Below the pieces are notes generated by a model. It was given only the letters and a program-made list of their open reading frames with translations. It ran no database searches and was not told the origin of the DNA. A DNA stretch of 62,961 nt, the filler included, from Dugesia japonica (lineage: Eukaryota): the NCBI GenBank assembly GCA_001938525.1. It is 6 parts of 6 records of this genome, joined end to end, with 100 filler letters (N's around TTAATTAATTAA, not from the genome) between each part and the next. Parts side by side here need not be neighbours in the genome. Positions count along the whole stretch, not along the records: positions 21,596 to 33,038 come from MQRL01640478.1; 5 more parts are not named here. One strand, 5' to 3'. Below are positions 1-38,751 of this stretch, piece after piece. Made by a program: the position numbers and the translations under genes. The first letter of the stretch is position 1. Every line of letters begins with the position of its first letter.

Positions 1-33
1 TATTATTTATTTATTATAATTATTAAAACAAAC

Positions 34-3000: not shown

Positions 3001-5523
3001 NNNNNNNNNNNNNNNNNNNNNNNNNNNNNNNAACACATCTTTATTATTGAAACTGCATCTGTCAATACTATCTATAATCCACTGGAAAATTGATTTACTA
3101 AAATCTATAGGAAATTTAAATGATCGTCCAGAGACCGACATCGCTTGAATGGATTTAATCTCTTCACTAAACGATTCCTGAGAGATTGGAGTATCGTTTT
3201 TACTAAGTAAATCAAAGTAAATCTTGAAACATTTACTCCTAATCAAATATGACGANNNNNNNNNNNNNNNNNNNNNNNNNNNNNNNNNNNNNNNNNNNNN
3301 NNNNNNNNNNNNNNNNNNNNNNNNNNNNNNNNNNNNNNNNNNNNNNNNNNNNNNNNNNNNNNNNNNNNNNNNNNNNNNNNNNNNNNNNNNNNNNNNNNNN
3401 NNNNNNNNNNNNNNNNNNNNNNNNNNNNNNNNNNNNNNNNNNNNNNNNNNNNNNNNNNNNNNNNNNNTGTTGTTGTTGTTAAATACTACCGATTTATTTT
3501 CATTCATTGTTTTTTTGAGTAAATCAAACGCGATAGATTTCGATTCAGAATTCAAACTTGAAGTGTTAATCATTAAACAAAGAAATTTTATGAAATCTGG
3601 AATCATTTCGGAACCGAGTTCTATTTTCGATACGGTATTCATGATGAAAATTGCGACCGAAGGAAATTGATGAATAACTGATGATTCTGTGAACAATAAA
3701 TATTTCGTAAATAGAACCGGAATAGATGGAACTAAAATTGAAGTAGGATCATCCCGTAATCGATCGTATAGTAACATTATTAAGTTGATATTGTATTTAA
3801 CAACGGGTTCCGCTTGTAACGGTTCGTAGGATTTCGTTTTAAAAGCATTACTTTGAACCAAACGAACTAGATTTGTACAATTCGATACTTTCATGAGGAT
3901 ATTAAGAGCTAATTCGAGGTCACTCAGTAGAATTTGATAGAATGTAGTCACACATTGAGATTTAGCGATTATATCGACGAGTCGTAGATATTTTTCCAGC
4001 ATTTTATTGTCAGAACAAGAACCGTAAAATATGCACGAATGTATCCAATTAACTGGAGATAGAATCTGTACGACTGTGTTTGGTTCGAGATTAATTTTCA
4101 CTAAGCAAATACTAATCAGATTCAAATAAGAGATTATCAGCTCTCGGTTATAATAATTGGTGTTGCTGCTACCTTCTTGGAGGATATGAGATTGGAGTGG
4201 TACAGATGTTCCGATCACATAACGAAATACACTTTGATAAACCGTTCCAACCGATTCGATTTTGTTCAAAATGAACAGCATGTGAAGAATAACCGTATTT
4301 GATTGTAGAAGAAGATTGTCGAAATCGATTTGTTTGCTGCATATTATTAAACTTTCGACAAATTTTTCAATTATACCAACAATGAAATAATTCGGTAGAA
4401 TTTCAGAGAAATTCTCCGAGAATTCCACATTAAAATTGACTTCGGTAACATCAGATATTTTACTGATACCCGCTGTAACACAAGATAATGCGAAACAGAA
4501 GAATTTGATTTTCATTTTGAGTTCATCGATTTGAGAACGTTCTTTGTCTATACGATGAATTCTAGATAACATCTGACAGTGTGTTAATACGTCTTTTTGG
4601 AGATTTGTCACTGTTTTCTTCAAATTAACCGGATCAGCTATCCAACACTCGTGTAAATCAACACTACGTTCGTACAATGACGCCATAGTTGTCAGATCTG
4701 TGTCCGGGTGAATGCACCACCCAATCATTATGTCGATAACATTGTGGAATCTCTGCACAACACATTCCGGACAATGATTGTAAACTCTGTTCAATATCAT
4801 CAATGACAGATTTAAACATTTCGGAAAACAGAGATTTTCAAAAAAGTATTCCCAACTGTGTAGAAATGTGTCTTTGTTTGATTTTAAGTTATTAATTACG
4901 CCATCAGTTGCAAATTCGATCATTTTCAGGAGCATTTTCAAAATTTGCAATGTGTACTGTTCAATTTGTAAATTCGTCATTTTATCGAATATTCGACACC
5001 AGAAATCAATAACAGCTGCATCACCGCGACGAATATTCAAATGAAGAAGATTCATCATTAATTGGCTAGTTACATTAATGAAATCGTCGGAACTTGCGGA
5101 ATCACAGATGCACAACTCTAAAATATTTATCATTTGATCGGAGAATTTATTCTGTGGAACTATTCCGTCTTGATTATTTATCAATAATAAGATTTCCTTG
5201 GCAACCCCTATTTTCTCTGTGTCACTATCAGATATCGATATTTTTCTAATCAATGGTGCAAGCGCGTTTAGCGGTTCGATTGTTCTTCGCATTTTTTTCA
5301 ATAAATCTTGTCGACGGCGTTTTAATTCGTTGTCATACTCTGTGATGACTTTCGTTTTATTAAGTTTTACTGGTTTTATCTCCTCAATTTCCCGGTCGTG
5401 TAATCTACTCATGATATCATAACCATTACTATCGATTTTTCTATAATTATTAGTGTCAGCCAAATAGGCTTTATTTTGTTCGTCGAGAAACGCTGGATCT
5501 AATATTTCTTTTTGTATGCACAT
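34..5523 (-). CDS. smg1: SMG1 PIKK-family kinase (nonsense-mediated decay), N-terminal ~1830 aa in one giant exon; kinase exons lie beyond the window start
   Basis: SMG1-typical motifs FHNVIDIMIGW, WTNVIPQLFARLKH, ELRRITVLWDELW and PETPRE. The ORF ends at a GAG|GTTTGT donor (GT at 33-32). The true start may be in an upstream exon. Confidence 0.9.
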
Positions 5524-5859
5524 TTGTAAATAGTTCTAAAATTAATATTAAAATGATGAAACGGAGAATTTATTTGATAGAAAAANNNNNNNNNNNNNNN
5601 NNNNNNNNNNNNNNNNNNNNNATTAACCCGTTCCAGGTAGGTCATGTTGCTCTGAATACGTATTTCAATCGGATTATATGCATTAATATGTTGAACAAAA
5701 ACATTTTCTATAATATAAACACATTTACAAACCAAATATTTACTTTTCTCGTTCTCAAATATAGAGAAAATATCATTCGAACATACACGCTATTTATTTA
5801 TAAATCCCATTAATACAGGATTGATTATAAAAGTCGCATTATAAAGATGTTTGATATTG

Positions 5860-11935: not shown

Positions 11936-12125
11936 TAGCAATAAGTGAGTATAGAAACACTGGATTTTGATTACTTTTGTTTATAATAAATGTGTTAGAA
12001 TAGTTAATCCATTTACTAACTCTTAAAATCCTTTTTCGTGCTAGTAAAAAATAGTTAAACAAGAACTTTCGAGTTCTTTTTCGTAATAAATTAAACATGT
12101 TTTGAAAAGTAATGTTTTATTCTAG

Positions 12126-12484
12126 TGCACTCTTTACTAAATAGATCGCAGGCCCCGACCAAGAAAGTCCGTGAGTCCAGCAAGAACTTAGAGATGACCT
12201 ACGACGTTTACAAACTCGCTAAACGTCGCTGGGAAGCCGATACTGCAAACGCCAATATCAAGGTGAAAAGGTACAAATATAAGTGTATGGCTTTTAAAAA
12301 TGAAGCCGAAGCATCCCACACACAAGATAGAGTATGGAAAGCTCAAATAAAGACATTCACAGAGATTATTCGGTCCTACCAAGACCGCGAGAATAAACTG
12401 GTCCGGGATATCTTGAAATTGAAAACAGCGATGCCCCTCGAATCATTAATGGTCGATAAGGGTACACAAACGGCACGCCCGTGA
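12126..12484 (+). CDS. LTR-cassette ORF2, coiled-coil protein with C-terminal DKGTQT (LC8 motif); exon lacking its own ATG
   Basis: Homologous to 46858-47197 (PTKK.RE.S...E.T.D.YKLAKRRWE...KVKRYK...EIIRS..D.ENKLV.DIL...LM.DKG); begins at TTCTAG|TG. Confidence 0.75.
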
Positions 12485-12611
12485 ACTCATTTATCTATAA
12501 TTTTATCTTAATAAACTTGTTTATATTCTTAACTAAATTTCTTGGTGTTATTGAGTATCGAAAGGATTATTATGATTAGGTGGTAGTAAAAGTTAATAAC
12601 TTCTTGTTTAG

Positions 12612-12973
12612 TGCCCCGGATCCAACTTCCAACTAACCTAAAACGGTGCCATCGGCTGATACAGAAACTATTATTCGAGCGCCATCTCAAAAGACAAAAT
12701 GAGAGGGCTCTGTTAAAACAACTCTCTCAACGTAACAAACTAATTAAAAAACAAGACATGATTGTGAAAAAGCAAAACGACGTAAATGAACAAACAAAGC
12801 AGCTCTTACAACACAAAGTGGAATTTTTGAAGCGGTATATCGTGGACCTATCGCGACAACTTGGTAACGCAGCATGGGTTCATTGGAACGACAATGATGA
12901 TGAGGCTGCCTTTAATTTTTTTGATATTGATCCGACCCAGTGGTTAGAACCGGGCGCTTTAGATTTGTTGTAA
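12612..12973 (+). CDS. LTR-cassette ORF3, coiled coil plus acidic/aromatic tail; exon lacking its own ATG
   Basis: Homologous to 47321-47703 (EFLK.YI.DLSRQ.GN, AAFNF, QWL.PGALDLL*); begins at GTTTAG|TG. Confidence 0.75.
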
Positions 12974-13119: not shown

Positions 13120-13219
13120 NNNNNNNNNNNNNNNNNNNNNNNNNNNNNNNNNNNNNNNNNNNNTTAATTAATTAANNNNNNNNNNNNNNNNNNNNNNNNN
13201 NNNNNNNNNNNNNNNNNNN
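13120..13219. other. Artificial contig-joining linker
   Basis: N44-TTAATTAATTAA-N44 (stops in six frames). Confidence 0.97.
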
Positions 13220-21495: not shown

Positions 21496-21595
21496 NNNNN
21501 NNNNNNNNNNNNNNNNNNNNNNNNNNNNNNNNNNNNNNNTTAATTAATTAANNNNNNNNNNNNNNNNNNNNNNNNNNNNNNNNNNNNNNNNNNNN
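21496..21595. other. Artificial contig-joining linker
   Basis: N44-TTAATTAATTAA-N44. Confidence 0.97.
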
Positions 21596-21755
21596 TACAT
21601 CAATTGAAAATATAACTTTAAATATATTTAAATAAATTTATTAATTTTTATCAATCAAAGTAAAGTAATAAATGTATTAGATTTTTTCAATCAATACTTG
21701 TGGCCCTAATGAGGGCCGTTATACATTCACATAATAATAATCAACATAATTGTAA

Positions 21756-22888
21756 TCAACTAAAATTTTGTGAGAAATGTTCTTGCATTGAATAATTTAA
21801 TTTTGATATTATTGCGTTCCGATGATTTTCATTTGTTGCATCTTCATAATACAATCTTTCATTATCGAAAATATGGAAGTGGCATCTTCTTCTAATTGCA
21901 GATTTCTGGGCCTCATTCGAATTTTCATTAATAATTTTTTTAACTATATTGGAACATATAATAATCTTTGTTTGGGTGGTTATTACCCGTTCTATATTTG
22001 AAATTTATCGAAATGTCATAGTTTATTAATTTATTAACTTCTCTGCGGTCCATTGATGCAACGGTAAGTCATCAATTACGCAACCGTCGTATTGATATTT
22101 TGTCGGACCTAATTTGCCGAAGTCCTGGCGAATAGTTATATGAATTGCATTGTCAAATAGGCTTAGTTCAAAATTTGTTTTACCTATTCCTAAAAAGATG
22201 AAATTTATAATATTTTATAATTAGATATTTCAAAAACATTACCAGTTCCAACTATAAAGATTTTCGTCCTGTTATCTTCCTAATTAAAGAATGGGATTCT
22301 CCATTTTTTGTTGAAATTGGCTTTCGTCACTGCCTCTAATCTAAAAATCAAAACACTCTGTAATTTAGAGTAAATCTTGATATAATCAAGTGATCGTTAT
22401 TTTTCTACCATTAAAAGCCCTGCTTCAACACTTTCACTTTCCAGAAAATGGGTCCAAAATGTTTCATCTTCAACTTTTTTGCGATATCCAAATTGAATTT
22501 TTAGTCAATTTGTAACCGCATTTTGAAAATGGCCGCATTGGTTCAAATATTTATAGACATTTTCGTAATCAATACATGTAATTATACACATAAAAAATAT
22601 ATATATGTCTAAGAAAATATTACCTTTTATTTCGATTATACCTAATAATGACAATGCCGCTTGAAAAGTCATATTATGCTTGAATGTAATGAAACATTCA
22701 AATATGGTACCACCGGTTACATCAACGTCTTGTCCAATAAAGAATTTGGATTTATCTTTTTTTAATATAACAAATTGCTTTCTGATTTCTTTGAAGTGAC
22801 TGGTGATGATATGGAAGCGGAAATTGCGGTATCTTTTGTTTCCTCCAGTTGGCATATTATCTGTATGTATTTCATTATTGCCTCTCAT
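21756..22888 (-). pseudogene. CRESS-DNA-virus-like Rep (HUH endonuclease + SF3 helicase) with introns 22242-22190 and probably 22623-22576
   Basis: Motif I-like RNFRFHI, degenerate motif II GGTIFECFITFK, Walker A VGTG|IGKT split by a GT-AG intron, Walker B DGCVIDDL, motif C KII.CSN (frameshifted) and Arg finger AIRRR; several in-frame stops. Confidence 0.8.
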
Positions 22889-22894
22889 CAGGTT

Positions 22895-23450
22895 ATTTTT
22901 GTTTTATTGAGAAACTTATAACATTTTATTTCTATTGAGTAACTCAACAAAATAAATAGTTTTGAATTATTATAAACCTAACAAAGGCAAGTAATTTTAC
23001 TTTATGAATAATTTCATGACATCTTAATTTTTATAAATTATAATTTGATTTATTTCAGAAATACATGAATTTAAAATAAATTAAAAAGATATAAATAAAC
23101 AAAAGGTAATTTTCAAAAAATCTTTTTTTATTTTATTGAGTAATATAAATTTGTTTTTTAAATTATTGGAAAACTCAAATTTTTGTTTAATTGAAAAACT
23201 TATAACTTTTTATTTTTATTGAGTAACTCAATAAAATAAATAATTTTTCATTATTATAAAATTATAACTTTTTTAAATTATTGAGTAACTTATATCTTTT
23301 TATTTCTATTGAGTTTTTCAATAAAATAAATAGTTTTGGATTATTATAAACTTTATTATGAATAATTTCATGACATCTTATTTTTTATAAATTATAACTT
23401 AATTAATTTCAGAAATACATGAATTTAAAATAAATTAAAAAGAAATTAAA
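22895..23450. repeat. AT-rich direct-repeat array with hairpin units (TTTTATTGAGT-A-ACTCAATAAAA) upstream of the Rep
   Basis: TATTGAG(T/A)AA units recur about 6 times; 22905-23085 is duplicated at ~23280-23450. Confidence 0.7.
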
Positions 23451-23457
23451 GTATAAA

Positions 23458-23781
23458 ATGAAATAACAACGAAGTATTACATTTTTTACATCATTAAATA
23501 AATCTTCAAAATCGGCGAGAATGCAAATTTTGAAATCATTTCCAACTTTTGTTATGGATGATTTAATTGAAATTATTATTAATATTGTTCGCGGAAATGT
23601 AAATGTGAGCAACTCTAGAAAGGAAGTATTAAAAATACATAAAAGAACGCTATTAACACTTTTAAATACAAAAAATAGGAAATTGATGAAGCGAGTAATA
23701 CGAGATAATCAAGGAGGCGGCTTTATAGCAGCATTACTACCAATTGCATTAGCAACCCTAGGATTAACTCATTTCAAATAA
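23458..23781 (+). pseudogene. Polinton/adintovirus small conserved protein (GG|F maturation-site type)
   Basis: EIIINIVRGNV...LKIHKRTL...NQGGGFIAALLP pattern directly upstream of the integrase; stop at codon 3 from the ATG at 23458, ORF intact from 23521. Confidence 0.7.
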
Positions 23782-23893
23782 AAAAATTATAGTTTTACAT
23801 CAGCAGTACTAATATTATTTCATTTCAAATAAATAAGGAGTGGTTTACAATCATTACCTAATTTTGATTTCAAATTTTTATCTTATTGTTGTA

Positions 23894-24118
23894 ATGGGCA
23901 AGCTGAAGAAGATGTGGACGGACCCAGAAAATCCCGCAGGTTTTCATGGCTTAGAAAAATTGATGAAAGCAGCACAAAAAACAAAAACAAAGACCAAAAA
24001 GTGGTTATCGCGTCAACGAGCGTACAGTCTGAACAAACCAATGTTGAAAAACATTTCCGAAGAGAGCATATATAACGTATGATATTGATGATTTATGGCA
24101 AATGGATTTGATGGAGAT
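23894..24118 (+). pseudogene. Polinton retroviral-like integrase N-terminus (truncated)
   Basis: MWTDPENPAGFHG...KWLSRQRAYSLNKP, then frameshifted FPKRAYITYDIDDLWQMDLMEM (first DDE Asp). Confidence 0.85.
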
Positions 24119-24307
24119 GAGTAATAGAGAAACTACGACTTGCTTGCAGTAACCACTCTTCAAATCCTCCCTTCGGCATAAAAGATTACTCTAATTTTGG
24201 TATATTAATTTGGTGCGGTATTTTAATCCCAAAGGGCCCCATTGTTCTTGCCAGTGGATATTCTATATTAAATTTTCTATCGGCAAGTCGTAGTTTTTCC
24301 ATTACTC
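24119..24307. mobile_element. MITE-like element with ~25-bp TIRs
   Basis: GAGTAATAGAGAAACTACGACTTGC ... GCAAGTCGTAGTTTTTCCATTACTC; no TSD seen. Confidence 0.7.
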
Positions 24308-24417
24308 GTTACTTGTTATAAGTCTTTTCGTTTTTATGATTTGTATTTTGTGTATTGAATTTTAAAAAATCTAAATTCATTGAAAAAAACAATTCAATTA
24401 AATTGTTTATAGTTAAA

Positions 24418-27400
24418 ATGGTTAGTAATCAGTTGATTTGTAAAAAGGTTTTTAAAAATAAATCAGGATTAGCAGATCATATTGGATCAAGATGTTGTCT
24501 TTTAGACAGAACAAGATTTAATTGTTCAAAATGTCTAAAAACGTTCAGAACTATGAGGGAATTGACCGAACATTTGAATTCTACTGATTGTGGAAATTTA
24601 AAGAAGGTTCCGTTGTTTTGTGAAGTTTGTTATGAAAAGTTTTCAAGACAAACTCATGCAAAAGCCCATTTTAATTCAAAATCACATAAAAAAATGGTCA
24701 ACAAAGTATTTTTTGAAGACTTACCTAGAGAAGAAGTAATTGATTTCAATCCAGAAATTTGAGACATCTTCAGAATGTACCAAAAAATCTATGAAATCGA
24801 ATATTTTAAAGAAAGTAAAGTTGAATTAACTATAAATGTTAAAAGTTTAGAAATACCAGTAAAAATGATTAATGAATTTCAGAAAGAAATCCAAGAAATT
24901 ATTACAAAGTATTTCAACTATGAAAAAAAGATTATTGTCCGAATCAGTGTAAATTGTAATTATAATAAAGATGTTAACGGTGAAGAAGACGAAAAAATTT
25001 TTAATTCGTATTCAAGTAATAAACAAATTACATTAACAAGTGAAATTAATGATAAAGTTAATAATATTTTAAATCACCTTCAAACATAAATTGAAGATGA
25101 AGATAGACGTTAATCAGGATGGAATCTAAATTATATAGTTGATCATAAAATTGAACTTTCAAAATATCAATCTATAGCTGGAGGGAAATCATCTTATCAA
25201 AAATTATCTTTTTCTAAACAAGGTGTCATTAATATTAAAAATAAAGATGAAAAATGTTTTTCCTATTGAATTTTAGCCCATAAACATTTATGTATTGATC
25301 CAACTAGAATAGAAAAATATATTCCTTATTTAGATGAATTAAATACTATTGGAATTAAATTCCCTGTTCATATTTGTTATGTAAAAAAATTGAAAAGTTA
25401 AATGAATGGAAAATAAATTTATTTGTTGTAACCGAGTTTAAACAACTTGAACCTTTGTATATTTCGCATTATGAAACTAAACCCAAACCAAAAGAAAATA
25501 AATGTAATTTATTAGTTTATAAAAAACAATTATATTTTATGCGGATATAAAAGTGTTTTATACAAAAAATAGAAATAAAAATCATTTGTGTATTAGATGT
25601 ATGAATTGTTATTATAGCAAAGACTTATTAATTAATCATCAAAAAGAATGTATTAATCATGAAATTAGTAATGTAGTTTTTTCTAAATATCAGAACTATT
25701 ATTACAAAAATAAAATACTTTTTTTAATTTATGGAGACTTTGAATGTTGGACTAATTCATCAACTAAAAAACAAAAACCACTTTCCATTGGTATTTATAT
25801 AGTAAGTAAATATCAAACTTTAATTCGAAATTAATACAAAGAATTTTATGGAGAAAACATTCATCAAGATTTCTTTGAATTTTTAAATGGACTTATTAAC
25901 AAATTAAAAGACAAAAGAAAATAAATTAATTGAAACTTATATTGGAACTAACCATCCAGAATTTACTAATCAAAATTGTAGATATTGTGATCAAGAAATG
26001 GGATTTGAAACTCCAGTAATTGATCACGATCATTCCAATGGTGAATTTAGAGGTTATTCACATTCTAAATGTAATTTACAAGATAAATCGATAAAAAATT
26101 TATTTATTTCTTTTTACTTTCACAATGCATATGGATATGATATTCATTTATTTTTTAAAGAAGTAATTATAAAATATACAAAAGAAGTTAGAAAAAAATT
26201 CCTCATAGTGATGAAGTTTACATTTCCTTTGAACTTGTAAAACCTAAAGAACCCTCAATTATATTTATAGATTCATTAAGAATGTGTACTCTTACTTCAA
26301 TTGAAAAAGTGGGAGAAACGTAAAATCAATCAGGAAAATATAATAATTTAAAATTTTTTAATTTAGCTCCGAAGAAAATTTCATTTCCTTTTGTATATGT
26401 AAAAGTAGAAAATATAAATGAAGTAATTGAATTATTAAAAAGAAACCATCCACCAACAGAACAAGATTTTTTCAATATATTAAGACAAAACAAAATAACT
26501 GATCATTAATACAATGAATTTTTACAAGATTTTATACAATTCAATAATCTTTGGGAATACATGTTACATTACATGAAAATAGATGTAATTATTTTAGCTG
26601 ATAAATTTGAAAATTTTAGAGAAACATGTTTAAATAATTATCAAATTGATCCAAATTATTGTTATTCAGCTCCGGGTCTAAATTGGAATGCAGGTGTGAA
26701 ATTTACTCAAGTAAAATTAAAATATGCTCAGAAAAAAACTTATGATAGATTTATTAAAATTGAAAGATGAGTTAGAGGTGGTTATTCTGGTGTTTGTGGA
26801 GAAAGACAAGTTTTTGGAAATAGTAAAAGAAATGATAAAAAAATAAATAATGCTCAATTAGATGATTTATTAAATATATTTACAAATCCTGAACAATATC
26901 TTCCAGATGATTATTTTGAAGAAACATTTTTAAATATTTAGATGAGAATTCTTTGTATGCTAGTTGTATGACAAAAGCATTACCAACTGGTGACATCTAT
27001 GAATGTAAGGATTTAAAATATATTAAATTAACAGATAAAATTAATTATGTTTATGAAGTTGATTTAGAATATCTAAAAAAGATTCATGAAAAGACTAAAT
27101 ACTTTCCATTAGCACCAGATCCTTTAAATATTACAAAAGAAATGTAAGCACCTTATCAATTATCTTTTGATAAAAAGTTGAGTAAGAAAAATATTAAATT
27201 AACATTGAATCAATTTCATAAACAAAATTATATTATTTTAGGATCAACATTCCATTTGTATATTTCTTTAGGAATGAAAATATTATAAATACATTCTAAA
27301 TATAAAATGACTACAAAACCTTAGTTAAAGGATTAGATTCAATTTAATATCAATCAGAGAAATGAAGCTAAAAGAACAAACGATGTTTTTGGTGATGTCT

Positions 27401-28200
27401 TCTTTAAATTATTAAATAATACTTTTTGCGGGAAAACATTAGAAAATATAAGAAACAGGTGTAATGTTGAAATAGTTGGAAATGATAAAAAGATTATCAG
27501 AAATTCACTTCAAAGATAAACTTTAAATCAAGTCAAATATTTTCTAGAGAAACAGATCCTCAAGAAGCTAAAACAGCGACTATTCATCTTTATAAAACTA
27601 AATTAAAATATAACAAGTTTCCATACATTGGATTTACTATTTTGGAATATGTAAATGAAGTAATTTACGACTTTATTTAAATGGATTTAAATATTCCTGG
27701 AAAATACAAAATTCATTTTTCAGATACTGATTCAATTTTTATAGAAAAAAAGGAAAAGAGAATTTAAGCAAAGTAACAAGTTTATTAGGTAATAATTTAT
27801 TCCAGATGAAAGTTGAAAAACCAAATTCAGAAATAACTAAATGTAATTTTATAAAAGCTTAAATTTATATAATTGAGGATTGTGGATCCAAAAATAATAA
27901 AAATATAGAAACCAAACATAAAGGTGTTTCTACAACTATTAAAATAGGAATGGAGTTTTAAGTAACCCTAAAGAAATTATTTATGGAACTAATTATAGTT
28001 TAAAATCGAAAAAACATGAAATAGAATTAACTGCTCAAAAGAAAATTGTATTAATAGGATATGATGATAAAAGATTAATCGAGGATAATGAAATAAGGAC
28101 TTGGTCCCATGGTAATAAATTTAAATGTGAAAATTGTAGTGAATGGCATTTGATATTAGATAAATTATTAGGGAAAAATTGTTTAATAAAGTGGTGACCA
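24418..28200 (+). pseudogene. Protein-primed DNA polymerase B (Polinton/adintovirus type) with N-terminal C2H2 fingers and an EndoVII-like insert; many stops and frameshifts
   Basis: C2H2 fingers 24418-24700; ExoI YGDFEC; DHDHSNGEFRGYSHSKCNL; ExoII FHNAYGYD; Pol A DENSLYASCM; Pol B FKLLNNTFCGKTLEN; Pol C SDTDS. Confidence 0.92.
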
Positions 28201-28929
28201 CGGTAACAATTAAAATTAAATTGTAATCTGGGGATGGGACCTTTTGGGATTTTAAAGGGTAAAAATGAGGAATTCAAAATAGAAATAGGATGGGACCTTT
28301 TCTTGCTTATTAATTATAAAACCTTTGCCCGCGGGCACATTTTTCAACTTGGTAAAATGGCTACTAGAGAAAACATAAGTGTGATCATTAAAGATGTAAA
28401 AAACTATAGAGTTTATGAATTATTTAAAACAAGAGTATACCAAATTTATTAACTTTACATTAAAAGAACAAAGTGTAGTTTTAAATGGAAATTTACCCAA
28501 AGTTTGGATTATATAAAAAAGCAATTAGTTTAGCTGATAATATAATTAATAAATTACAAAGTGAATTATAAAATACCAAGTGCCAAAATGAAACGCTTAA
28601 AAGAAATATCGAAAATAATAATATTAAAAATAAACAAATAAAAGATACAATGAGAAAAATAAATAAACAAAACAAACACTTCAATAAATTATTAAATAAA
28701 ATGACTAGTGAAATAAATGTAAAAAGAAATGTATAACTTTGTAAAAAATTATATTAACTTAAATAAAATATTTGAACAACAAAACATTTAATTATATTTT
28801 CAATTATTATCATTTGTATAATTGTTTGTTTAATTCCAATTGTAATCCCATATATAATTGTTTATGTAATTGAAAATTTAATCTCAAATATAATTCCATT
28901 TATAAATTCTTATTTTTTTACTAAAGAAA

Positions 28930-29361
28930 ATGGAAAGTAGAAAAGATTTCAATGTTAATGGTAATGATTCAATTAATTGTGCAAATTCATTTGTTTCAAC
29001 ATTATTTATTAAATCTCAGAAAATTTATTTAGCAGAAAAATATCATGAATTATGTTTTAAAAAACCAAATTTTAAAGATTCAGACATTGCTAAAGAAATT
29101 GGAATTACAATTCAAGCTTTAAATAAAACTTTAAGGGAATTGAATTTAAAACCAAAAGTAAAAATATATCCAAGGGTAAAATATTTATTCAATGAACAAA
29201 CAAATAAATTTATGAAAAATAATTATAGAGTTCATGTTTTTAATATTAAAACTAATACATTTGAATTGATAGAAGTTTTACCCAAATATACTTTAACTGA
29301 TAAAAGAAATAATTTTATGTCAACAAAATTAAAAAGTAATTCAATTTCAAATTTAAAATAA
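28930..29361 (+). CDS. Polinton-associated HTH-like protein
   Basis: DSDIAKEIGITIQALNKTLRELNL; clear homolog at 50165-50680. Confidence 0.6.
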   Translation: MESRKDFNVNGNDSINCANSFVSTLFIKSQKIYLAEKYHELCFKKPNFKDSDIAKEIGITIQALNKTLRELNLKPKVKIYPRVKYLFNEQTNKFMKNNYRVHVFNIKTNTFELIEVLPKYTLTDKRNNFMSTKLKSNSISNLK

Positions 29362-32300
29362 TTTTAAAAATAAGAAATCAAGAAAAAATCGAAATGAAAC
29401 TGGTGGAGTGATGTTTGAATATATTATAAATGATGCAGATAGAAATTTAAAAAACCTCGTTTTTCCTTAAAAACTATACCTACAGGAACAATTAAAACTT
29501 CTTTTTTCTGCTTGTTGACATTATAATATTAAAGTTGTGACTGCGGTAACCGGTTTATAAATTTGTTTTAATTTTAATTTTAAAAATTCAAAAGTGTTTA
29601 TTGCAGTAAAAATTAAAGCGTCCTTAATATTTATCATTCTTATTATATATTCTATTCCAGAAGATATGTAAATGTATATCGCTTTAAATTTTAGTTAATT
29701 TATTAAATAAAGCAAAATATAAACCATTCTATTTGGAAAAACCCCTTTACACTAATTTTTCTATTAAAACATTAAAACTAATTCGACTTAATCAAACAAA
29801 AGTCATCTTTATTCACGCAAAATATAAACCAATTTCAACATAATATCAATTTATAAAAAACATTAGTTGAATTATTATTCTTATTTAATTTTTCCAAAAA
29901 ATGAAGCAGATTAGATAAATTTTATTTACATTTTGTCTTGTAACAAACCTCAAAACCAATTATCAAACTTTTAAGCTAAATTATTACATTTTTTATCAAA
30001 AACATTTAAATCCCTTCAATTTAATATTAATCTAAATTAATTCTCTTAACTCTACTTCACCTCCATTATCTTCTCTTCATCTTCTTATGACTCTTTAATT
30101 GGCTATTTTAACTCTTTAATTGACTCTTTACCTCTTTTGTTAACATCTTTACCTCTCCTTCTTTTTAAAAAACTCATTTAATCAATTCCTAAATACTTAA
30201 AATATCTGCCAGATGTGCTGTGGACTTCATTTATCAAAGCTCTGCTCACTGTTTACTAGTTTTCAGTAATTAATACTCTTCCAATTGTTTACTGATATTT
30301 AATTATCGTTGTTCACATGTTTTCACTCTTTACTGGTTTTCTGACTCTTTGAAAGTCTCGCTTTTCATTGGTGTTAAAGGTACTGTTTGATTAATAGTTA
30401 AGTTTCAACCTGACTATTAGAATAAACGATACACAGATTAATCTATTAACTGAATAATCAATAGGTAAATTATGATAACGAGTATTGTGCACGGTAATAC
30501 TTGATGATAGTGAGTATTGTCTATGTTAAGACTTAATGATAGTGGATATTATACTAAGTGTGATTGATAGGTGAATAATGTACAATAAATGGATTTAACG
30601 TGTATTTTCGAAGATTTCATTATATTACGGTAAAATACGTGAATGATTAACTGGACTATTTGGTTAGATTAATAGTATAATCAAAATACAATTGAGTGAA
30701 CCATTGGTAAATTGTAAATAATCACTTGTCAGTATTAGAGACATTTTTTCAGAAAAGTTTATGTAAAATTTAACTATCTTTAAAATGTTTGTAAATTTTC
30801 AATGATTTTTAAAAAATTATAGTAAATTTTAGAATTGTTTTCCCATTCTTTTACATAGGATTTTTTGATTTTTGGATAGGTTCTTGAAAATTCTACCAGT
30901 TTTAGAAAGGTTCATATAGATTTTGACTAGTTTTCTTAAAAAGTTGTAGTAAATTTAAAAAAAAGTTTAAATATAATTAAAAAGATCATGTAAATTTCAG
31001 ATAAAATTATTTGAATTCAACTAAATTTGATAAAACTATCACACTCTTTTTTGTCATCATTGACAAAACATTCCTCACATTCTTGTTCTTACCTATAATT
31101 TTTTCTAACTTAAAGTAATGAATCATACTGAAGAATTAAGTAAAACCTAACTTTGATAAGAAATAATTGAAGAAATATTATTTATTTGTCAATGTATTGG
31201 TTGAATACATATGGTTTAATAAGTCTTTTATTCAATGATAAAACTATAAGACTATAAAACTATATGTATTATAAGACGCATATTTTTATGATAAATCCCA
31301 TATTTTCATGATAAAAAGTAGAGAGATAGTAGCGCACAAGCACAATTTGCTACGATTTTTGTGCTTGTTTTCATTCGAAGATTTTTGGGATCAAAATTAT
31401 TTTAATCGGATCATCATTCTTTGATCCTGAAAGTGTGTGTGTGTTTTTGATTTTTAAAATATGTGTGTGTTTAGAAAAATGTGTGTTAATTTAAAGTAGG
31501 TCAAATTGAGTTTGTGTGCCTATCGGTGTGTGTGTTTGAAAGAGTGTAAATGGACTCGAGGGAGGTCTGGAGATCTTGGAAATAATATTTTGGTAGTTTT
31601 ATGATATAGTTGTGGTTAGATAAAAAGTCTGTCTATATATTGTCTAAAACACTTATGTGGTAGGACGGATGGTTTGTTATAGAAGTGTGGTAGCGCACAA
31701 GCACAGTTGTATCGTGGTGTCATTTTTGTGAGGGTGTAAGTTTATAGAGGCTTGTTATATTTTGGTGGTTGATAAATTGTTGGAAAAGTAATAATAGGGC
31801 GGATGTTGAATGTCAATTGTGCTTTAATTTCTGATTGGTTGTGGTCAAATTTAATTTGTTGATGTTTGTACGTAGAATAAGTGTGTTAAAAAAAATTTAG
31901 GACGGGGAAATGGTATGGGTGGAAAGATTTTATTAGATTTATTTGAAATTTTTTTGCTGGGTTGGTGTGACGAAATAATTTCTTGAAAATTTAATTTTCC
32001 GTAAAATGCTGTATTTTGCTTAATTTGATGAATCCAATAAAAATAATGGTATGTTTGTAAAATAGATGTATTTTTGAGTATTTTTGTTGTATTTTTGTAT
32101 GGGAAGAAATGTGTTTTGCATTTTTTGAAGAGGAAGAGGTCTTGATATATTTGGAGGGAAAATTTGTTTTGACGGGAAAATTAAAAAATTATTTTTTGGT
32201 GGGAAATTTAAAAATATATTTTTGAGCAGATATTTTGAGCATATTTTTTATTTTACATGGGATGGATAAGTCTTGATATTTTACATGGTTTGGGACAGTT

Positions 32301-32691
32301 TTTTTCTTTGCATGGTATGTGGCAGTCTGGATATTTTGCAGTAAATGGGTCAGTCTTGATATTTTTGTTAGTGATTGAAGCAGTCTAAAATGCCAAGGCA
32401 CGTAATTTTTAGTGTATGTGTGTTGTATTAGTGTTTCATCTGAGTCGCATACCTATTGCATACCTATTGCATACAAAGTGCATTTAATGATAAGTGTATT
32501 TAAGTGCATTTTCAATAAGAAATTTAGTTTATTTTACTAATTAAAAATCTTTTTAATTTACGATTTATAAAAAATAAATAGGAAAACAATTATTCAGTAA
32601 AATATATATTATATTAACATTAGTGTTTGTTGTTTTTAATCATCTGCAGAATATTTTTTTTCATGATTTCATAATTGGTCTTGTTTTCTTT

Positions 32692-33038
32692 TCAATGAAA
32701 ATCCAATTCTATTTCCATGATGATTTCATACATAATAAGCTCTATGTCCATTTCTATTGTTCTCGAGATATGATCAAAATAATCGTTTGTGGACAACAGC
32801 ATATATTTATTAAGAAATTCTGGAAACATTTCATTAAATATCTGCTTTGCTATTAAACTCTTACCATACAAATACTGCTTTGTTTCTTCTTCTTTTTTCA
32901 ATCTAATCATATCATCATCATCAACAACATCATGGTATGTGTTTTCCATTTTTTCATCTTCATGTATTTGTTCAACTTGAACAGTCTTTTTTTCTTGGTT
33001 AATGACATTTTCATTTTCAAGATTTCTTTCTCTGTGGT
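32692..33038 (-). CDS. Acidic hypothetical ORF, open at the contig edge
   Basis: Open frame from the contig edge to the stop at 32692; no recognisable motif. Confidence 0.25.
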
Positions 33039-33138
33039 NNNNNNNNNNNNNNNNNNNNNNNNNNNNNNNNNNNNNNNNNNNNTTAATTAATTAANNNNNN
33101 NNNNNNNNNNNNNNNNNNNNNNNNNNNNNNNNNNNNNN
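33039..33138. other. Artificial contig-joining linker
   Basis: N44-TTAATTAATTAA-N44. Confidence 0.97.
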
Positions 33139-36263: not shown

Positions 36264-38751
36264 TATAATCATCATCATCATTAAAAAAAGTTTAGTAATT
36301 ATAACAATTTTGAGAATTCCATACAAACATGGTGTTCTGCGTGGAACAAACCATCAAATGCTATTTAAAATATCATTTGTCTTTTTGGTAATATCTGATT
36401 TTTCTTCTACACTTTGTTTGGAATAATTGTTTTGCCAAATATCTTTTTTTTTAATTAATTTTAAAATTTACGTCATTTGAAAGAAGGTAGAGCACCAATA
36501 ATGTGAAAATACCAAATTTTAGCAGAATGTGTGATGTTGGAATTGGTACATTCTTGATTAATTTATTTGCTCAGTATTTCCTTATACCAATTTTTAACAG
36601 AGTTTTATTTATTTCCTCTGAAATTGATACGAGAGATTCAAATATACACGTGAATATTTCAGCATAATAATGAGTTATTGCTGCTTGTATCTTATTTTTA
36701 AAATTCTCATATTTAATCAAGTTGCTTTCATTAACACATTCGCTGCCACACACAATTTTATATTTTTACCTGCAACCAACATCGAATATAAATATTAATT
36801 TTTGAAATAAATATCAGATTTATCTAAAATAAAAGCTTCGATCAAAATTTCTGTTTTTTTTTTGGTTTTTTATAATAATTTTATATTTTAACTTTGTCTT
36901 CTTCAGGAATTGATTTTTTTTAATTCAATTCCTGAAGAAGACAAAGTTAAAATATAAAATTATTATCAAAAACCAAAAAACAACAAAAATTTTGATCGAA
37001 GCTTTTATTGTAAATGAATTCTTTAAAACGATCAATGGTTTTGCCAACAATTATTGCAATTGTAAAAATATCAAATATTTTTAACTAACAGTCTCATATA
37101 TGACTACAAAAATAATAATCTTTTTACGAGTTATCTCGTAGTTGGCAGAGAACGTGGTAATCAATTGAAAATTCTTTTCCAAATCTAATAGACATTTGAT
37201 ATCTTATAGGAGGATTGCTTTTTCATCGTTTGTATTACTCAAGTCTATATGTTCTTTAGAGTTATTGAAAAATAAGTAAGCTTAGTAATTTCAATGATCA
37301 AGTTTGGAGATTTGAGGTAATATACAAAGGTTTTTAGACATGCATTATGTCTTTCAGTTGTTAAACTTTGATTAAATTTAAAACTTTGAAGAACATGAGA
37401 CACAGTTTCCTCTGCATCAAGACGACTGATAAATGATAAATGAACGAGCAAATATATTCAAGTTATTTAAACGAGCCTCGTGAATAAAGTTCAATTAAAA
37501 TTCATTAAGTTTGCCTTTATATATAAATTTGTAGATAATTGTAATATTGTCAATAATATTAGCGAGTTCTTATCAAAATGTTGCTTTCAGAAGATTTATA
37601 CCCGGTAAATTGTTTATTATACGTAATGTCATTTCTTGATCAATTATTTCAAATGATATCGAAGTATTGTAAATTTTCCTCAAATATTCCAGAGCATTTC
37701 TCAGACGTTAAAATTTAGTCTTTTTTGATTTTGAGTTGGAATTTGTTTGCACATCATTAATCGGTTGGAAGCATTCTTACATTATTGGATTAGACTTGTT
37801 AATATCAGTACTTACTACAAAACAGAGTGAATCTTACTTTATTTTTCTAGTGTATTAAAATATCGAAGTTACAAGTCTGAAATATTGAATCATGTTTTGA
37901 ATGTGATATTCATCAAGCGTGTCAGTACAGGCTTTCCACCATTTTATGTAGAATTATAGAAGTAAAATGTTTCTGACTGATAAGGAAGGTAAAATATCTA
38001 TCTAATAACATTGTGCAATAATCAAGCATAAATATTACAAGAATAATAAATTATTTATTTCATTTTAGAACAACTTCAAAATTATTTCATTATTTGCAGG
38101 TTCAAAGAAGCCAAATTTGTTGTTGAAACTTTCACAGTTGATCCGGCCTATTTGAAACATAAACACGAAGGTAAATGTCCTGATTTCCGAGTATGTTTTG
38201 CAGAATTTACTAATTCATTCTAAATGTTTGTTAGCATTGGCATATACAACTTGGTCGAAGATTTCGATCCTTGAAAATCTGGTTTGTGTTGCGTTTATAT
38301 GGAGTCAAGGGTATCCAAAAATATATTCGAAATGTAAATTATTAACATTATTGAAGAATCTTTAACTGATATCTTTAATAATAGCACATAGAGTTGGCGC
38401 ATTTGTTTGAAAGATTAATTTCCAGAGATGATCGGTTTGAAATTGTTGAAGAAGTCACGATGGGATTGGTTTGTTTTCNNTTGAAGGTAAAATACTTGAC
38501 TTTTTAACAAATAATGCATGTAATGTTTCTAGGGTAACAATGAGATTAATAATGATCTTTACAAGAGAATTGAAGCTGATGGTCGAATTCACTTAGTAAC
38601 ATCGGTATTCTGTGACACTGATATTGTTTATCTGAGATTCGCAGTGTGCTATCAATTCGCTACAAAAGATCACGTTAAATTTGCTTATGATACGATCATT
38701 GATGTAACAGATAAAATGAACTTGTCTATTAGCGCTCAATCAAAGAAATAG
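33165..38751 (+). CDS. ddc: Aromatic-L-amino-acid (DOPA) decarboxylase-like, 3' exons 33165-33232, 38100-38190, 38235-38333, 38385-38486, 38533-38751
   Basis: [23 protein letters not shown] (PLP lysine), [51 protein letters not shown]. All junctions are GT-AG and frame-consistent. Other group II decarboxylase paralogs are not fully excluded. Confidence 0.9.
33415..33525. repeat. Inverted repeat of the pLTR tail (no hammerhead core)
   Basis: AAAAGCTTCGATCAAAATAAAATCTATTTGTAAAGAAATT / AATTTCTTTACAAATAGATTTTATTTTGATCGATGCTTTT. Confidence 0.75.
33980..35880 (+). mobile_element. Penelope-like retroelement remnant (RT + GIY-YIG) in the ddc intron
   Basis: [56 protein letters not shown] and EALMIRL; interrupted after YIGE at 35491. 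Confidence 0.88.
36218..36263. repeat. (AAT)n microsatellite
   Basis: Direct reading. Confidence 0.95.
36300..37800 (-). mobile_element. Very decayed Gypsy-type pol remnant (RT/RNaseH/integrase)
   Basis: Minus-strand vestiges [23 protein letters not shown] and YGIL in pol order; weak. Confidence 0.35.
36815..37075. repeat. Divergent inverted pair of Penelope pLTRs with mutated hammerheads
   Basis: TCAATTCCTGAAGAAGACAAAGTTAAAATATAAAATT on both strands around 36915-36925. Confidence 0.8.

What the first reader, a model, noticed from the sequence alone, without database searches (positions are those of the whole stretch)
21756..22888. CRESS-virus-like Rep gene containing host-sized spliceosomal introns
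Seen: HUH-like N-terminus plus SF3 helicase. Walker A is interrupted by a 53-nt GT-AG intron (22242-22190) whose removal restores TG-IGKT in frame. A second 48-nt AT-rich segment (22623-22576; GTAATA donor, acceptor decayed to CAT) restores EIKGIDYENVYKY when removed. Intron sizes match the host genes here (44-51 nt). Motif II lacks His. Known: some gemini/genomoviruses have one Rep intron. Inference: either an unknown multi-intron ssDNA virus lineage of this host, or a Rep that lived long-term in the genome (transposon-borne or domesticated helicase) before decaying.
Basis: partly seen in the sequence, partly recalled or inferred. Interest (0 to 1): 0.75.

Follow-up and report, generated by a model that had tools for sequence, protein, structure and literature searches.

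The report
Virus replication gene carrying short introns
This is a broken copy, lodged in an animal genome, of a viral DNA-replication gene whose closest named relative is a planarian virus-like element; it holds two short segments that are likely introns, and its relatives hold similar likely introns at other sites, pointing to a little-studied virus group whose replication genes are likely spliced.

Summary
Observation confirmed. Window 22895-21756 (-) is a decayed, 5'-truncated CRESS-type Rep gene (HUH domain plus SF3 helicase). Its nearest named relative is the Rep of the planarian element PEVE; both halves group with it (100/99; SH-aLRT 99). A family profile breaks exactly at the 53-nt GT-AG segment, inside Walker A. 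The 48-nt segment is a 16-codon excess against five relatives. In four DNA runs a high-depth form, 91-94% alike, carries both segments; there the first has canonical ends and (three runs) is 46 nt, so it could not be read through. Three metagenomic relatives and PEVE itself have 40-56-nt GT-AG segments at other sites; PEVE's deposited Rep lacks motif I, which lies behind such a segment. PEVE has terminal inverted repeats and a capsid-like ORF. So the introns likely belong to a PEVE/PIVE-type virus lineage and were not gained by a domesticated gene. PEVE and its integrated form PIVE are known; the multi-intron Rep was not found in my paper searches. Splicing is inferred (no RNA run); no capsid is seen beside this copy; whether the high-depth form is episomal or nuclease-dead is open. 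New variant of a known kind, interest 0.5.

The parts
22624..22895 (-). Rep exon A, 5'-truncated: HUH domain with motif I (22828), the GQ strand (22735) and a motif II position without His (22705)
   Evidence: profile nodes 5 onward; hhalign E 3.2e-5, probability 73; motif I to GQ = 31 codons as in relatives; high-depth contigs diverge at 22896
22576..22623 (-). Likely intron 1, 48 nt, phase 1, GT donor, non-canonical end in this copy
   Evidence: 85% AT; 16-codon excess (35 against 19) relative to P0031, PEVE Rep, P0032, P0008, P0017; canonical ends in the high-depth form of 4 of 4 runs and 46 nt long in 3 of 4 (tables 3-4)
22243..22575 (-). Rep exon B: motif III position without Tyr (22540), helical middle domain, first half of Walker A; stops at 22507, 22399, 22282
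   Evidence: tblastn of PEVE Rep, 33% over 105 residues; profile to node 194
22190..22242 (-). Likely intron 2, 53 nt, phase 1, GT-AG, inside Walker A
   Evidence: 87% AT, the most AT-rich 46-nt window of the gene starts in it; profile break at nodes 194/195; spanned without gap by a contig of depth 642 (X4 record 24)
21756..22189 (-). Rep exon C: SF3 helicase (Walker A end, Walker B 22073, motif C near 21950, arginine finger 21893), frameshifted stretch from about 22028, stop at 21758-21756
   Evidence: phmmer, 27 hits with E<=1e-3; 98.0 bits to the profile
21644..21732 (.). Downstream stretch shared with further contigs; holds a 6-bp GC-rich hairpin at 21702-21717; possibly part of a terminal repeat (inferred)
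   Evidence: summed depth at 21650-21699 is 2.6-4.5 times the median gene bin in 4 of 4 runs; hairpin in the folded strand, z -1.92, 7 of 200 shuffles as good; single site in the window
22896..23464 (.). AT-rich repeat of very high depth that stands where the 5' part of the element would be; not part of the element
   Evidence: depth at 22900-22949 is 84-326 times the gene's; 82-nt and 109-nt repeats; 90-nt tandem unit
23467..28200 (+). Neighbour, not part: decayed Polinton/adintovirus-like region (zinc fingers, endonuclease VII, protein-primed polB pieces)
   Evidence: Pfam zf-C2H2, Endonuclease_7, DNA_pol_B_2; broken into many short frames; the label Polinton/adintovirus is recalled from this domain order

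Best explanation
The stretch is a decayed, 5'-truncated copy of a CRESS-type Rep gene whose nearest named relative is the Rep of the planarian element PEVE, and its two short AT-rich segments are likely spliceosomal introns that the parent element itself likely carries, that parent likely being a persistent PEVE/PIVE-type ssDNA virus present in many near-identical copies in this animal. Shown: domain order, relationship, lesions, the segments, their presence in the high-depth DNA form, and similar segments at other sites in four relatives. Inferred: the element is transcribed in the nucleus and the host spliceosome removes the host-sized introns; the spliced message gives an HUH domain, a middle oligomerisation domain and a ring-forming SF3 helicase that unwinds the genome; in relatives with intact motifs (PEVE, L017, L019) the HUH domain would nick an origin, likely in terminal repeats, as PEVE has 118-nt inverted repeats; retention of intron 2 would give a helicase-less product. 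A piece of such an element integrated, lost its 5' part at an AT-rich repeat and collected stops and frameshifts. Because the intron sites differ between members, introns were likely gained (or lost) repeatedly in this lineage.
For: Nearest named hit is PEVE Rep; it matches both halves of the window gene in order, combined E 5e-28. Clade of window + PEVE + 8 unnamed rows has 100/99 support on the helicase half (11 of 67 rows) and SH-aLRT 99 on the N half (7 of 53 rows). Family profile hits circovirus Rep 7LAR over nodes 4-300, E 4.9e-16 (7LAR is PCV2 Rep per PMC10288648). Atlas features of the close relative P0031 score 0.97 to Cressdnaviricota Rep clusters. Profile break and spacing tests. 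High-depth form (contig depths 412-642 for the long pieces, against 4-13 for most diverged pieces in X1, X2, X4) carries both segments; none of the 13 listed joints skips either. GT-AG segments in relatives: PEVE L001:3903-3958 (56 nt; motif I to GQ is exactly 31 codons only without it) and 3417-3464; L017:1958-2005, 2864-2903; L018:3-53, 1218-1257; L019:96-140, 957-996. PEVE has 118-nt inverted repeats; its ORF1L scores 0.95 by features to ssDNA capsid clusters.
Against: No RNA evidence for any junction. No capsid-like gene in the window or in L002-L037; only 160 nt follow the stop before the scaffold ends. L017 is a Rep piece with tandem repeats inside a retrotransposon, without capsid. Contig depth is not copy number and cannot tell episomal from integrated DNA. 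The window copy lacks the HUH His, the catalytic Tyr and the first Walker A Gly, and its HUH core is only 26-33% identical to L017-L019, which are 48-65% identical among themselves; the one-codon shortening before motif II is also in high-depth contigs (no gap in X2 record 12), so the parent's nuclease may be dead. The capsid call for ORF1L has no Pfam or PDB sequence support, and only 5 of its 10 best Atlas hits share a family. The host was not identified.
Confidence: 0.62

Rival explanations
1. The high-depth form is a purely integrated, capsid-less repeat family (a PIVE-like transposon or an amplified array) descended from a PEVE-type virus; its Rep may keep only the helicase, and some introns were gained during residence in the genome.
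For: No capsid in the window or next to L017-L019. Many low-depth pieces 81-86% alike to the window show repeated old insertions. The downstream stretch with a hairpin is shared with more contigs, as non-autonomous copies would give. HUH core diverges fast. PIVE is catalogued as an integrated element (Liu et al. 2011).
Against: PEVE, not found integrated per Liu et al. 2011, has such segments too, so residence is not needed for introns. L017 and the window copy are both 5'-truncated pieces without defined ends. A nuclease-dead Rep could not mobilise the family by itself.
Confidence: 0.22
2. The gene is an endogenised Rep of an ordinary circular CRESS DNA virus, and PEVE's linear layout does not apply to it.
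For: Domain order and arginine finger are those of CRESS Reps; spliced Reps are known in circular viruses (36 crucivirus genomes, PMC7468197); 36 of the 67 tree rows, mostly short viral and metagenomic contigs, carry the wider Rep family.
Against: Those rows lie outside the supported PEVE clade; the only clade member with a whole segment has inverted terminal repeats.
Confidence: 0.07
3. The Rep is cargo of the neighbouring Polinton/adintovirus-like element.
For: It lies head to head with a decayed polB region on one gap-free scaffold.
Against: High-depth contigs leave the window at 22896 (X3 record 18 goes on for 512 nt elsewhere), and a repeat of 84-326-fold higher depth separates the two. 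No polB-like gene was seen beside Rep in the relatives whose DNA I read, L001 and L017-L019.
Confidence: 0.04
4. It is a domesticated single-locus host helicase that gained introns and then died.
For: Introns of host size; nuclease motifs lost while the first helicase part stays 65-69% identical to L017-L019.
Against: A homogeneous high-depth form beside many diverged pieces is not a single-copy gene; viral relatives have the same kind of segments.
Confidence: 0.03
5. The two segments are unspliced insertions of AT-rich DNA.
For: Segment 1 has no stop and a non-canonical end in this copy; no RNA reads are available.
Against: Both begin with GTAAT, match host intron size, and sit in the homogeneous high-depth form, where segment 1 has canonical ends and a length not divisible by three; segment 2 would shift the frame inside Walker A.
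Confidence: 0.02

Closest known systems
[quoted passage not shown]
   Same: Same Rep clade on both halves; same motif spacing; short GT-AG segments in the Rep gene.
   Different: About 35% amino-acid identity in the middle and helicase parts; intron sites differ; PEVE keeps the HxQ and YxxK motifs; PEVE was not found integrated (Liu et al. 2011), this copy is integrated and broken; no capsid or terminal repeat is visible here.
PIVE, Schmidtea mediterranea integrated virus-like element (Repbase 2008; PIVE_3p)
   Same: Integrated, repeated planarian element; PIVE_3p is listed next to the PEVE large-segment Rep in Fig. S7 of Liu et al. 2011.
   Different: PIVE also encodes a parvovirus-NS-like protein (PIVE_1p), which was not seen in the window.
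Cressdnaviricota Reps with one intron (mastrevirus-type sites in 36 crucivirus genomes, PMC7468197; mastre- and genomoviruses recalled)
   Same: HUH plus SF3 helicase in one protein, coding frame split by a predicted spliceosomal intron.
   Different: There the predicted intron lies between nuclease and helicase; here there are two, one before motif III and one inside Walker A, and relatives have others before motif I, after motif I, after motif C and in the arginine finger. Genome form of the clade's reference member is flanked by inverted repeats.
Replitrons and Helitrons (eukaryotic HUH transposons, PMC10288648)
   Same: HUH-family gene in many genomic copies; a hairpin near one end.
   Different: Replitrons have no fused helicase and Helitrons have a Y2 Rep with an SF1B helicase; this gene has a fused SF3 helicase and no defined transposon ends were found.

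Membership tests
CRESS-type Rep protein | N-terminal HUH domain fused to an SF3 helicase | tested here: met
   profile nodes 5-194 and 195-332 in order; family profile to PCV2 Rep E 4.9e-16; Pfam alone 0 of 5 window pieces
CRESS-type Rep protein | Motif II HxH/HxQ and motif III YxxK intact | tested here: not met
   window copy has Ile and Gln at these places; met in PEVE, L017, L019; unknown for the high-depth form (40 of 140 difference rows shown)
CRESS-type Rep protein | Walker A, Walker B, motif C, arginine finger | tested here: met
   all present in order; first Gly of Walker A reads Val in this copy
Cressdnaviricota (virus) | Circular ssDNA genome with stem-loop origin | not testable with these tools
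   only an integrated piece and short contigs; the nearest whole relative has inverted terminal repeats
Cressdnaviricota (virus) | Placement within a named family by Rep phylogeny | not tested
   no named family references in the trees
PEVE/PIVE-type element | Rep in one clade with PEVE large-segment Rep | tested here: met
   100/99, SH-aLRT 99; group defined after a first FastTree run
PEVE/PIVE-type element | Terminal inverted repeats | tested here: inconclusive
   copy cut at 22896 and by the scaffold end; raised depth at 21650-21749 fits a shared terminal repeat; no DNA match to PEVE's repeats
PEVE/PIVE-type element | Linked ORF1L (capsid-like) and ORF2L genes, second helicase gene | tested here: inconclusive
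   no match to PEVE large-segment ORFs in the window, but the element's flanks are missing; the small segment was not fetched
PEVE/PIVE-type element | Extrachromosomal multi-copy state | not testable with these tools
   high-depth homogeneous contigs in 4 of 4 runs fit it but do not show it
Replitron | Y1 Rep without fused helicase; short terminal direct repeats | tested here: not met
   fused SF3 helicase; definition from PMC10288648
Helitron | Y2 Rep fused to an SF1B (Pif1) helicase | tested here: not met
   helicase is SF3
Spliceosomal intron | GT-AG ends, host-like size, removal restores colinearity with relatives | tested here: met
   segment 1 has a canonical end only in the high-depth form
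Spliceosomal intron | Spliced junction seen in RNA | not testable with these tools
   no RNA holder listed

The most novel reading that the evidence does not exclude
PEVE, this element and the metagenomic relatives form an unclassified lineage of invertebrate ssDNA viruses that join a CRESS-type Rep and a jelly-roll capsid in an inverted-repeat-flanked genome, a layout between CRESS viruses and parvoviruses; their Rep genes keep gaining host-sized introns at new sites (at least seven sites among five members); and in this host the element persists at high copy with a Rep that has kept the helicase and lost the nuclease.
Probability: 0.25. Interest if true: 0.75.

Novelty: new variant of a known kind. 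Interest (0 to 1): 0.5.

Why it matters
It ties an orphan element described in 2002 to a wider clade and predicts that its deposited Rep is incomplete because splicing was not annotated. Several short introns at member-specific sites in a small-virus Rep would give a compact test case for intron gain and for adaptation of viral genes to the host's intron size. Gene callers cut such Reps into fragments (the four best hits, P0001-P0004, are 121-199 aa), so the group is likely under-counted. If the capsid call for PEVE ORF1L holds, a virus with a CRESS-type Rep and inverted terminal repeats bears on how parvoviruses arose from CRESS viruses. The window copy itself is a dead fragment.

Tried and rejected
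No whole genome is held for this window. Pfam: 0 of 5 window pieces. Word-index search with the helicase part: 97 candidates, none with E<=1. PDB phmmer with the helicase part: one chance hit. BLASTP of P0028 against the first open frame: nothing. No RNA holder listed among 6 runs; this is no evidence on expression. P0031 found no relative in viral contigs or phage records. PEVE large-segment ORFs and a 4-sequence ORF1L profile found nothing in the window or in L002-L037. ORF1L: no Pfam or PDB sequence hit; the Atlas model of it is poor (pLDDT 0.29) and its structure search names no family. No structure was predicted, so fold-level checks are open. A 43-nt GT-AG stretch at 21986-21944 was rejected as an intron because it aligns to motif C. 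A 31-nt donor choice in PEVE was rejected because it does not restore frame or spacing. The profile places segment 1 only to within about 4 codons: replacing it scored first of 99 windows with one profile and second of 99 with the 4-sequence clade profile. P0014 and P0018 (RING and DUF285 proteins) were dropped as chance hits; 5 duplicate rows were dropped before the helicase tree and 4 before the N-half tree. Earlier-finding look-ups by place, sequence and words gave nothing on this element. Rebrikov et al. 2002 and the Cressdnaviricota paper are not held; the Repbase PIVE entry could not be seen and may already mention introns.

Full report
Setting. The window is several scaffolds joined by N-spacer marks; the finding lies at the left end of a gap-free scaffold, 21596-33038. 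The DNA is AT-rich and animal-like: a homeodomain gene and a decarboxylase gene whose exons follow PF00282 without a break across introns of 44 and 51 nt, with a third of 46 nt. I did not identify the host. No whole genome is held.

The observation. The gene is more broken than stated: stops at 22507, 22399 and 22282, and a frameshifted stretch from about 22028. Pfam finds nothing in 5 of 5 pieces, a word-index search nothing among 97 candidates.

What it is. phmmer with the helicase half gave 27 proteins at E<=1e-3. Two were dropped as chance hits. Twelve of the 27 match Viral_Rep or Gemini_AL1_M at E<=0.01, most below the curated cut-off. Of 28 proteins looked up by cluster (30 look-ups) only two clusters carry informative names: the Rep of the planarian virus-like element PEVE (P0005, AAK53631.1) and a ladybird protein (P0020). 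A profile of 20 relatives matches the window in two frames, nodes 5-194 at 22840-22244 and nodes 195-332 at 22190-21774; the N-half match was not part of the query. A 27-sequence profile hits the circovirus Rep 7LAR over nearly its whole length, E 4.9e-16, and the close relative P0031 scores 0.97 to Cressdnaviricota Rep clusters. In a tree of the helicase half (67 rows, 117 columns) the window, PEVE Rep, P0028, P0032, P0001, P0002, P0004, P0026 and L017-L019 form one group, 100/99; the N half gives the same for its 7 available rows, SH-aLRT 99, with a long branch for the window. The group was named after a first FastTree run, the columns are few, and no named virus family is in the trees.

Are the segments introns? 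The profile break falls between two adjacent nodes of Walker A, exactly at the ends of the 53-nt segment; GT and AG at a given pair of places have a chance of about 0.0016. The distance from the end of the preceding helix to the motif III position is 19 codons in P0031, PEVE, P0032, P0008 and P0017, and 35 in the window, 19 without the 48-nt segment. Replacing the segment by X raises the profile score from 43.8 to 53.7 bits (first of 99 windows) and from 80.0 to 88.2 (second of 99). Four of six listed DNA runs were laid (three studies, contigs only). All 30 bins are covered in each. Long pieces fall into a high-depth class (412-642; 91-94% alike to the window) and diverged low-depth pieces (mostly 4-13 in X1, X2, X4; 18-39 in X3; 81-86% alike). 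A contig of depth 642 spans the 53-nt segment without a gap. In the high-depth form the other segment has canonical ends in 4 of 4 runs and is 46 nt in 3 of 4 (X4 does not show the length difference), so it could not be read through in frame. None of the 13 listed joints skips either segment. The high-depth form also differs from the window at one of the three N-half stops and at the frameshifted stretch, so these lesions are likely private to this copy; only 40 of 140 substitution rows and 12 of 19 indel rows were shown. No RNA run was listed, so splicing is inferred.

Relatives. Scans returned 16 viral and 21 metagenomic loci. L001 is the PEVE large segment. Its motif I lies in another frame than the deposited Rep; the distance from motif I to the GQ strand is 31 codons in the window, P0031, L018, L019 and P0008, and exactly 31 in PEVE once a 56-nt GT-AG segment (3903-3958; 73% AT against 52%) is left out. 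A second segment of 48 nt with an in-frame stop lies upstream. L017, L018 and L019, from one metagenome, each show two AT-rich GT-AG segments of 40-51 nt: before motif I (L017, L019; L018 has an acceptor at the same place with an uncertain donor), in the arginine finger (L017, L019), after motif C and far upstream (L018). None has a segment at the window's two sites. L017 lies inside a retrotransposon. PEVE has 118-nt inverted repeats, and its ORF1L scores 0.95 by features to smacovirus capsids and 0.90-0.92 to densovirus and parvovirus capsids; only 5 of the 10 best hits share a family, and Pfam and PDB sequence searches are blank, so 'ssDNA capsid-like' is a lead and the family is open.

Ends and neighbours. 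High-depth contigs leave the window at 22896, where a repeat of 84-326-fold higher depth begins; X3 record 18 goes on for 512 nt elsewhere. The copy is therefore 5'-truncated, and the decayed polB region beyond is likely only a neighbour. Downstream, depth at 21650-21699 is 2.6-4.5 times the gene's median, around a 6-bp hairpin at 21702-21717, which fits a shared terminal repeat or non-autonomous copies. No capsid-like match is in the window, but the scaffold ends 160 nt after the stop.

Catalytic state. The window copy has Ile for the motif II His (47 of 53 rows His), Gln at the Tyr position by spacing (52 of 53 rows Tyr) and Val for the first Walker A Gly (49 of 53 Gly). Its HUH core is 26-33% identical to L017-L019, which share 48-65%, while the first helicase part is 65-69% against 73-88%. 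The one-codon shortening before motif II is shared by a high-depth contig (no gap, X2 record 12). The nuclease may thus have relaxed before this copy decayed; the motifs of the high-depth form were not read.

How it likely works. Shown: anatomy, relationship, lesions, presence of the segments in the high-depth DNA form and of similar segments in four relatives. Inferred: nuclear transcription, removal of host-sized introns by the host spliceosome, a Rep that nicks an origin (in members with intact motifs) and unwinds DNA as an SF3 ring, persistence at high copy, and occasional integration of pieces that then decay. Retention of intron 2 would give a helicase-less product, as with the short Rep forms of gemini- and circoviruses (recalled). 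If the nuclease is dead in this host's element, nicking would have to come from a second replication protein, such as the NS-like gene that PEVE's small segment and PIVE carry; this is speculation.

What is known. Liu et al. 2011 (PMC3198968; passages, section 8 whole, supplement passages) name PEVE, not found integrated, and PIVE, integrated in Schmidtea mediterranea, list PIVE_3p beside the PEVE large-segment Rep, and do not use the word intron in the main text or the three supplements searched. Craig 2023 (PMC10288648; passages) defines Replitrons and Helitrons, neither of which fits. De la Higuera et al. 2020 (PMC7468197; passages) report 36 crucivirus genomes with predicted spliced Reps. 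PMC6186406, PMC9241645 and PMC7595835 (passages) add only citations. Rebrikov et al. 2002 and the Repbase entry were not seen and may mention splicing. Ten searches found no paper on multi-intron Reps of this group; the library lacks most subscription papers. One earlier scan note (e1-7589380, another genome, unchecked) describes a 48-nt intron in endogenous Reps.

Verdict. A real, dead, integrated copy of a PEVE/PIVE-type Rep gene with two likely introns that belong to the element. The element type is known; several host-sized introns at member-specific sites, the likely mis-annotated PEVE Rep and its capsid-like ORF are the new parts. New variant of a known kind; interest 0.5.

Noticed in passing
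L001:3096-4819 (PEVE large segment): The deposited Rep (272 aa) starts after motif I; motif I lies in another frame, behind a 56-nt GT-AG segment (3903-3958), and a second 48-nt segment with an in-frame stop lies at 3417-3464. A 265-codon frame (3127-3924) overlaps the 5' part and ends inside the 56-nt segment.
   Followed up: partly
L001:82-1003 (-), PEVE ORF1L; P0043-P0046: Scores 0.95 by Atlas features to smacovirus capsid clusters and 0.90-0.92 to densovirus/parvovirus capsid clusters; the deposited type 1 and 2 proteins change frame near the N terminus relative to P0045 and P0046, which read through.
   Followed up: partly
L017:1719-3640: A 5'-truncated Rep with intact HxE and YxxK motifs, two likely introns, three 109-nt tandem repeats and a (TA)n run sits inside a retrotransposon with a Ulp1-type protease and reverse-transcriptase-like frames.
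   Followed up: partly
P0008: A 17-residue excess between the GQ strand and motif II (28 against 11) looks like a retained in-frame intron at yet another site; no DNA was available.
   Followed up: no
window 23467-28200 (+): Decayed Polinton/adintovirus-like region: small ORF, integrase-like pieces (recalled resemblance), zinc fingers, endonuclease VII and polB.
   Followed up: partly
window 50660-52909 (+) and 57322-57627 (+): Double jelly-roll-like domain (PF21738) and phospholipase A2-like domain (PF08398) on another scaffold; a further polB-like end piece (recalled resemblance, no Pfam support).
   Followed up: no
window 22896-22977: Short AT-rich repeat with summed contig depth of 57,000-291,000, likely a major satellite or miniature repeat; it marks the 5' cut of the Rep copy.
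   Followed up: partly
window 7-5535 (-): Intron-less frame of 1842 codons with N runs, resembling an SMG1-type kinase (recalled, untested), in a genome whose other genes have short introns.
   Followed up: no
window 38101-38751 (+): 3' end of a pyridoxal-dependent decarboxylase gene with introns of 44, 51 and 46 nt.
   Followed up: yes
window 61144-62604 (-): Homeodomain gene (PF00046) cut by an intron at homeodomain position 46.
   Followed up: no
window 12113-12973 and 46806-47411 (+): Two related coiled-coil frames (72% alike over 102 nt) on different scaffolds, probably a repeat family.
   Followed up: no
P0020: A more distant member of the same wider Rep family lies on a 4.3-Mb contig of the ladybird Henosepilachna vigintioctopunctata.
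   Followed up: no
window 13120-13219, 21496-21595, 33039-33138, 43768-43867, 52858-52957: N44-spacer-N44 marks: the window is several scaffolds joined; the finding's scaffold is 21596-33038.
   Followed up: yes
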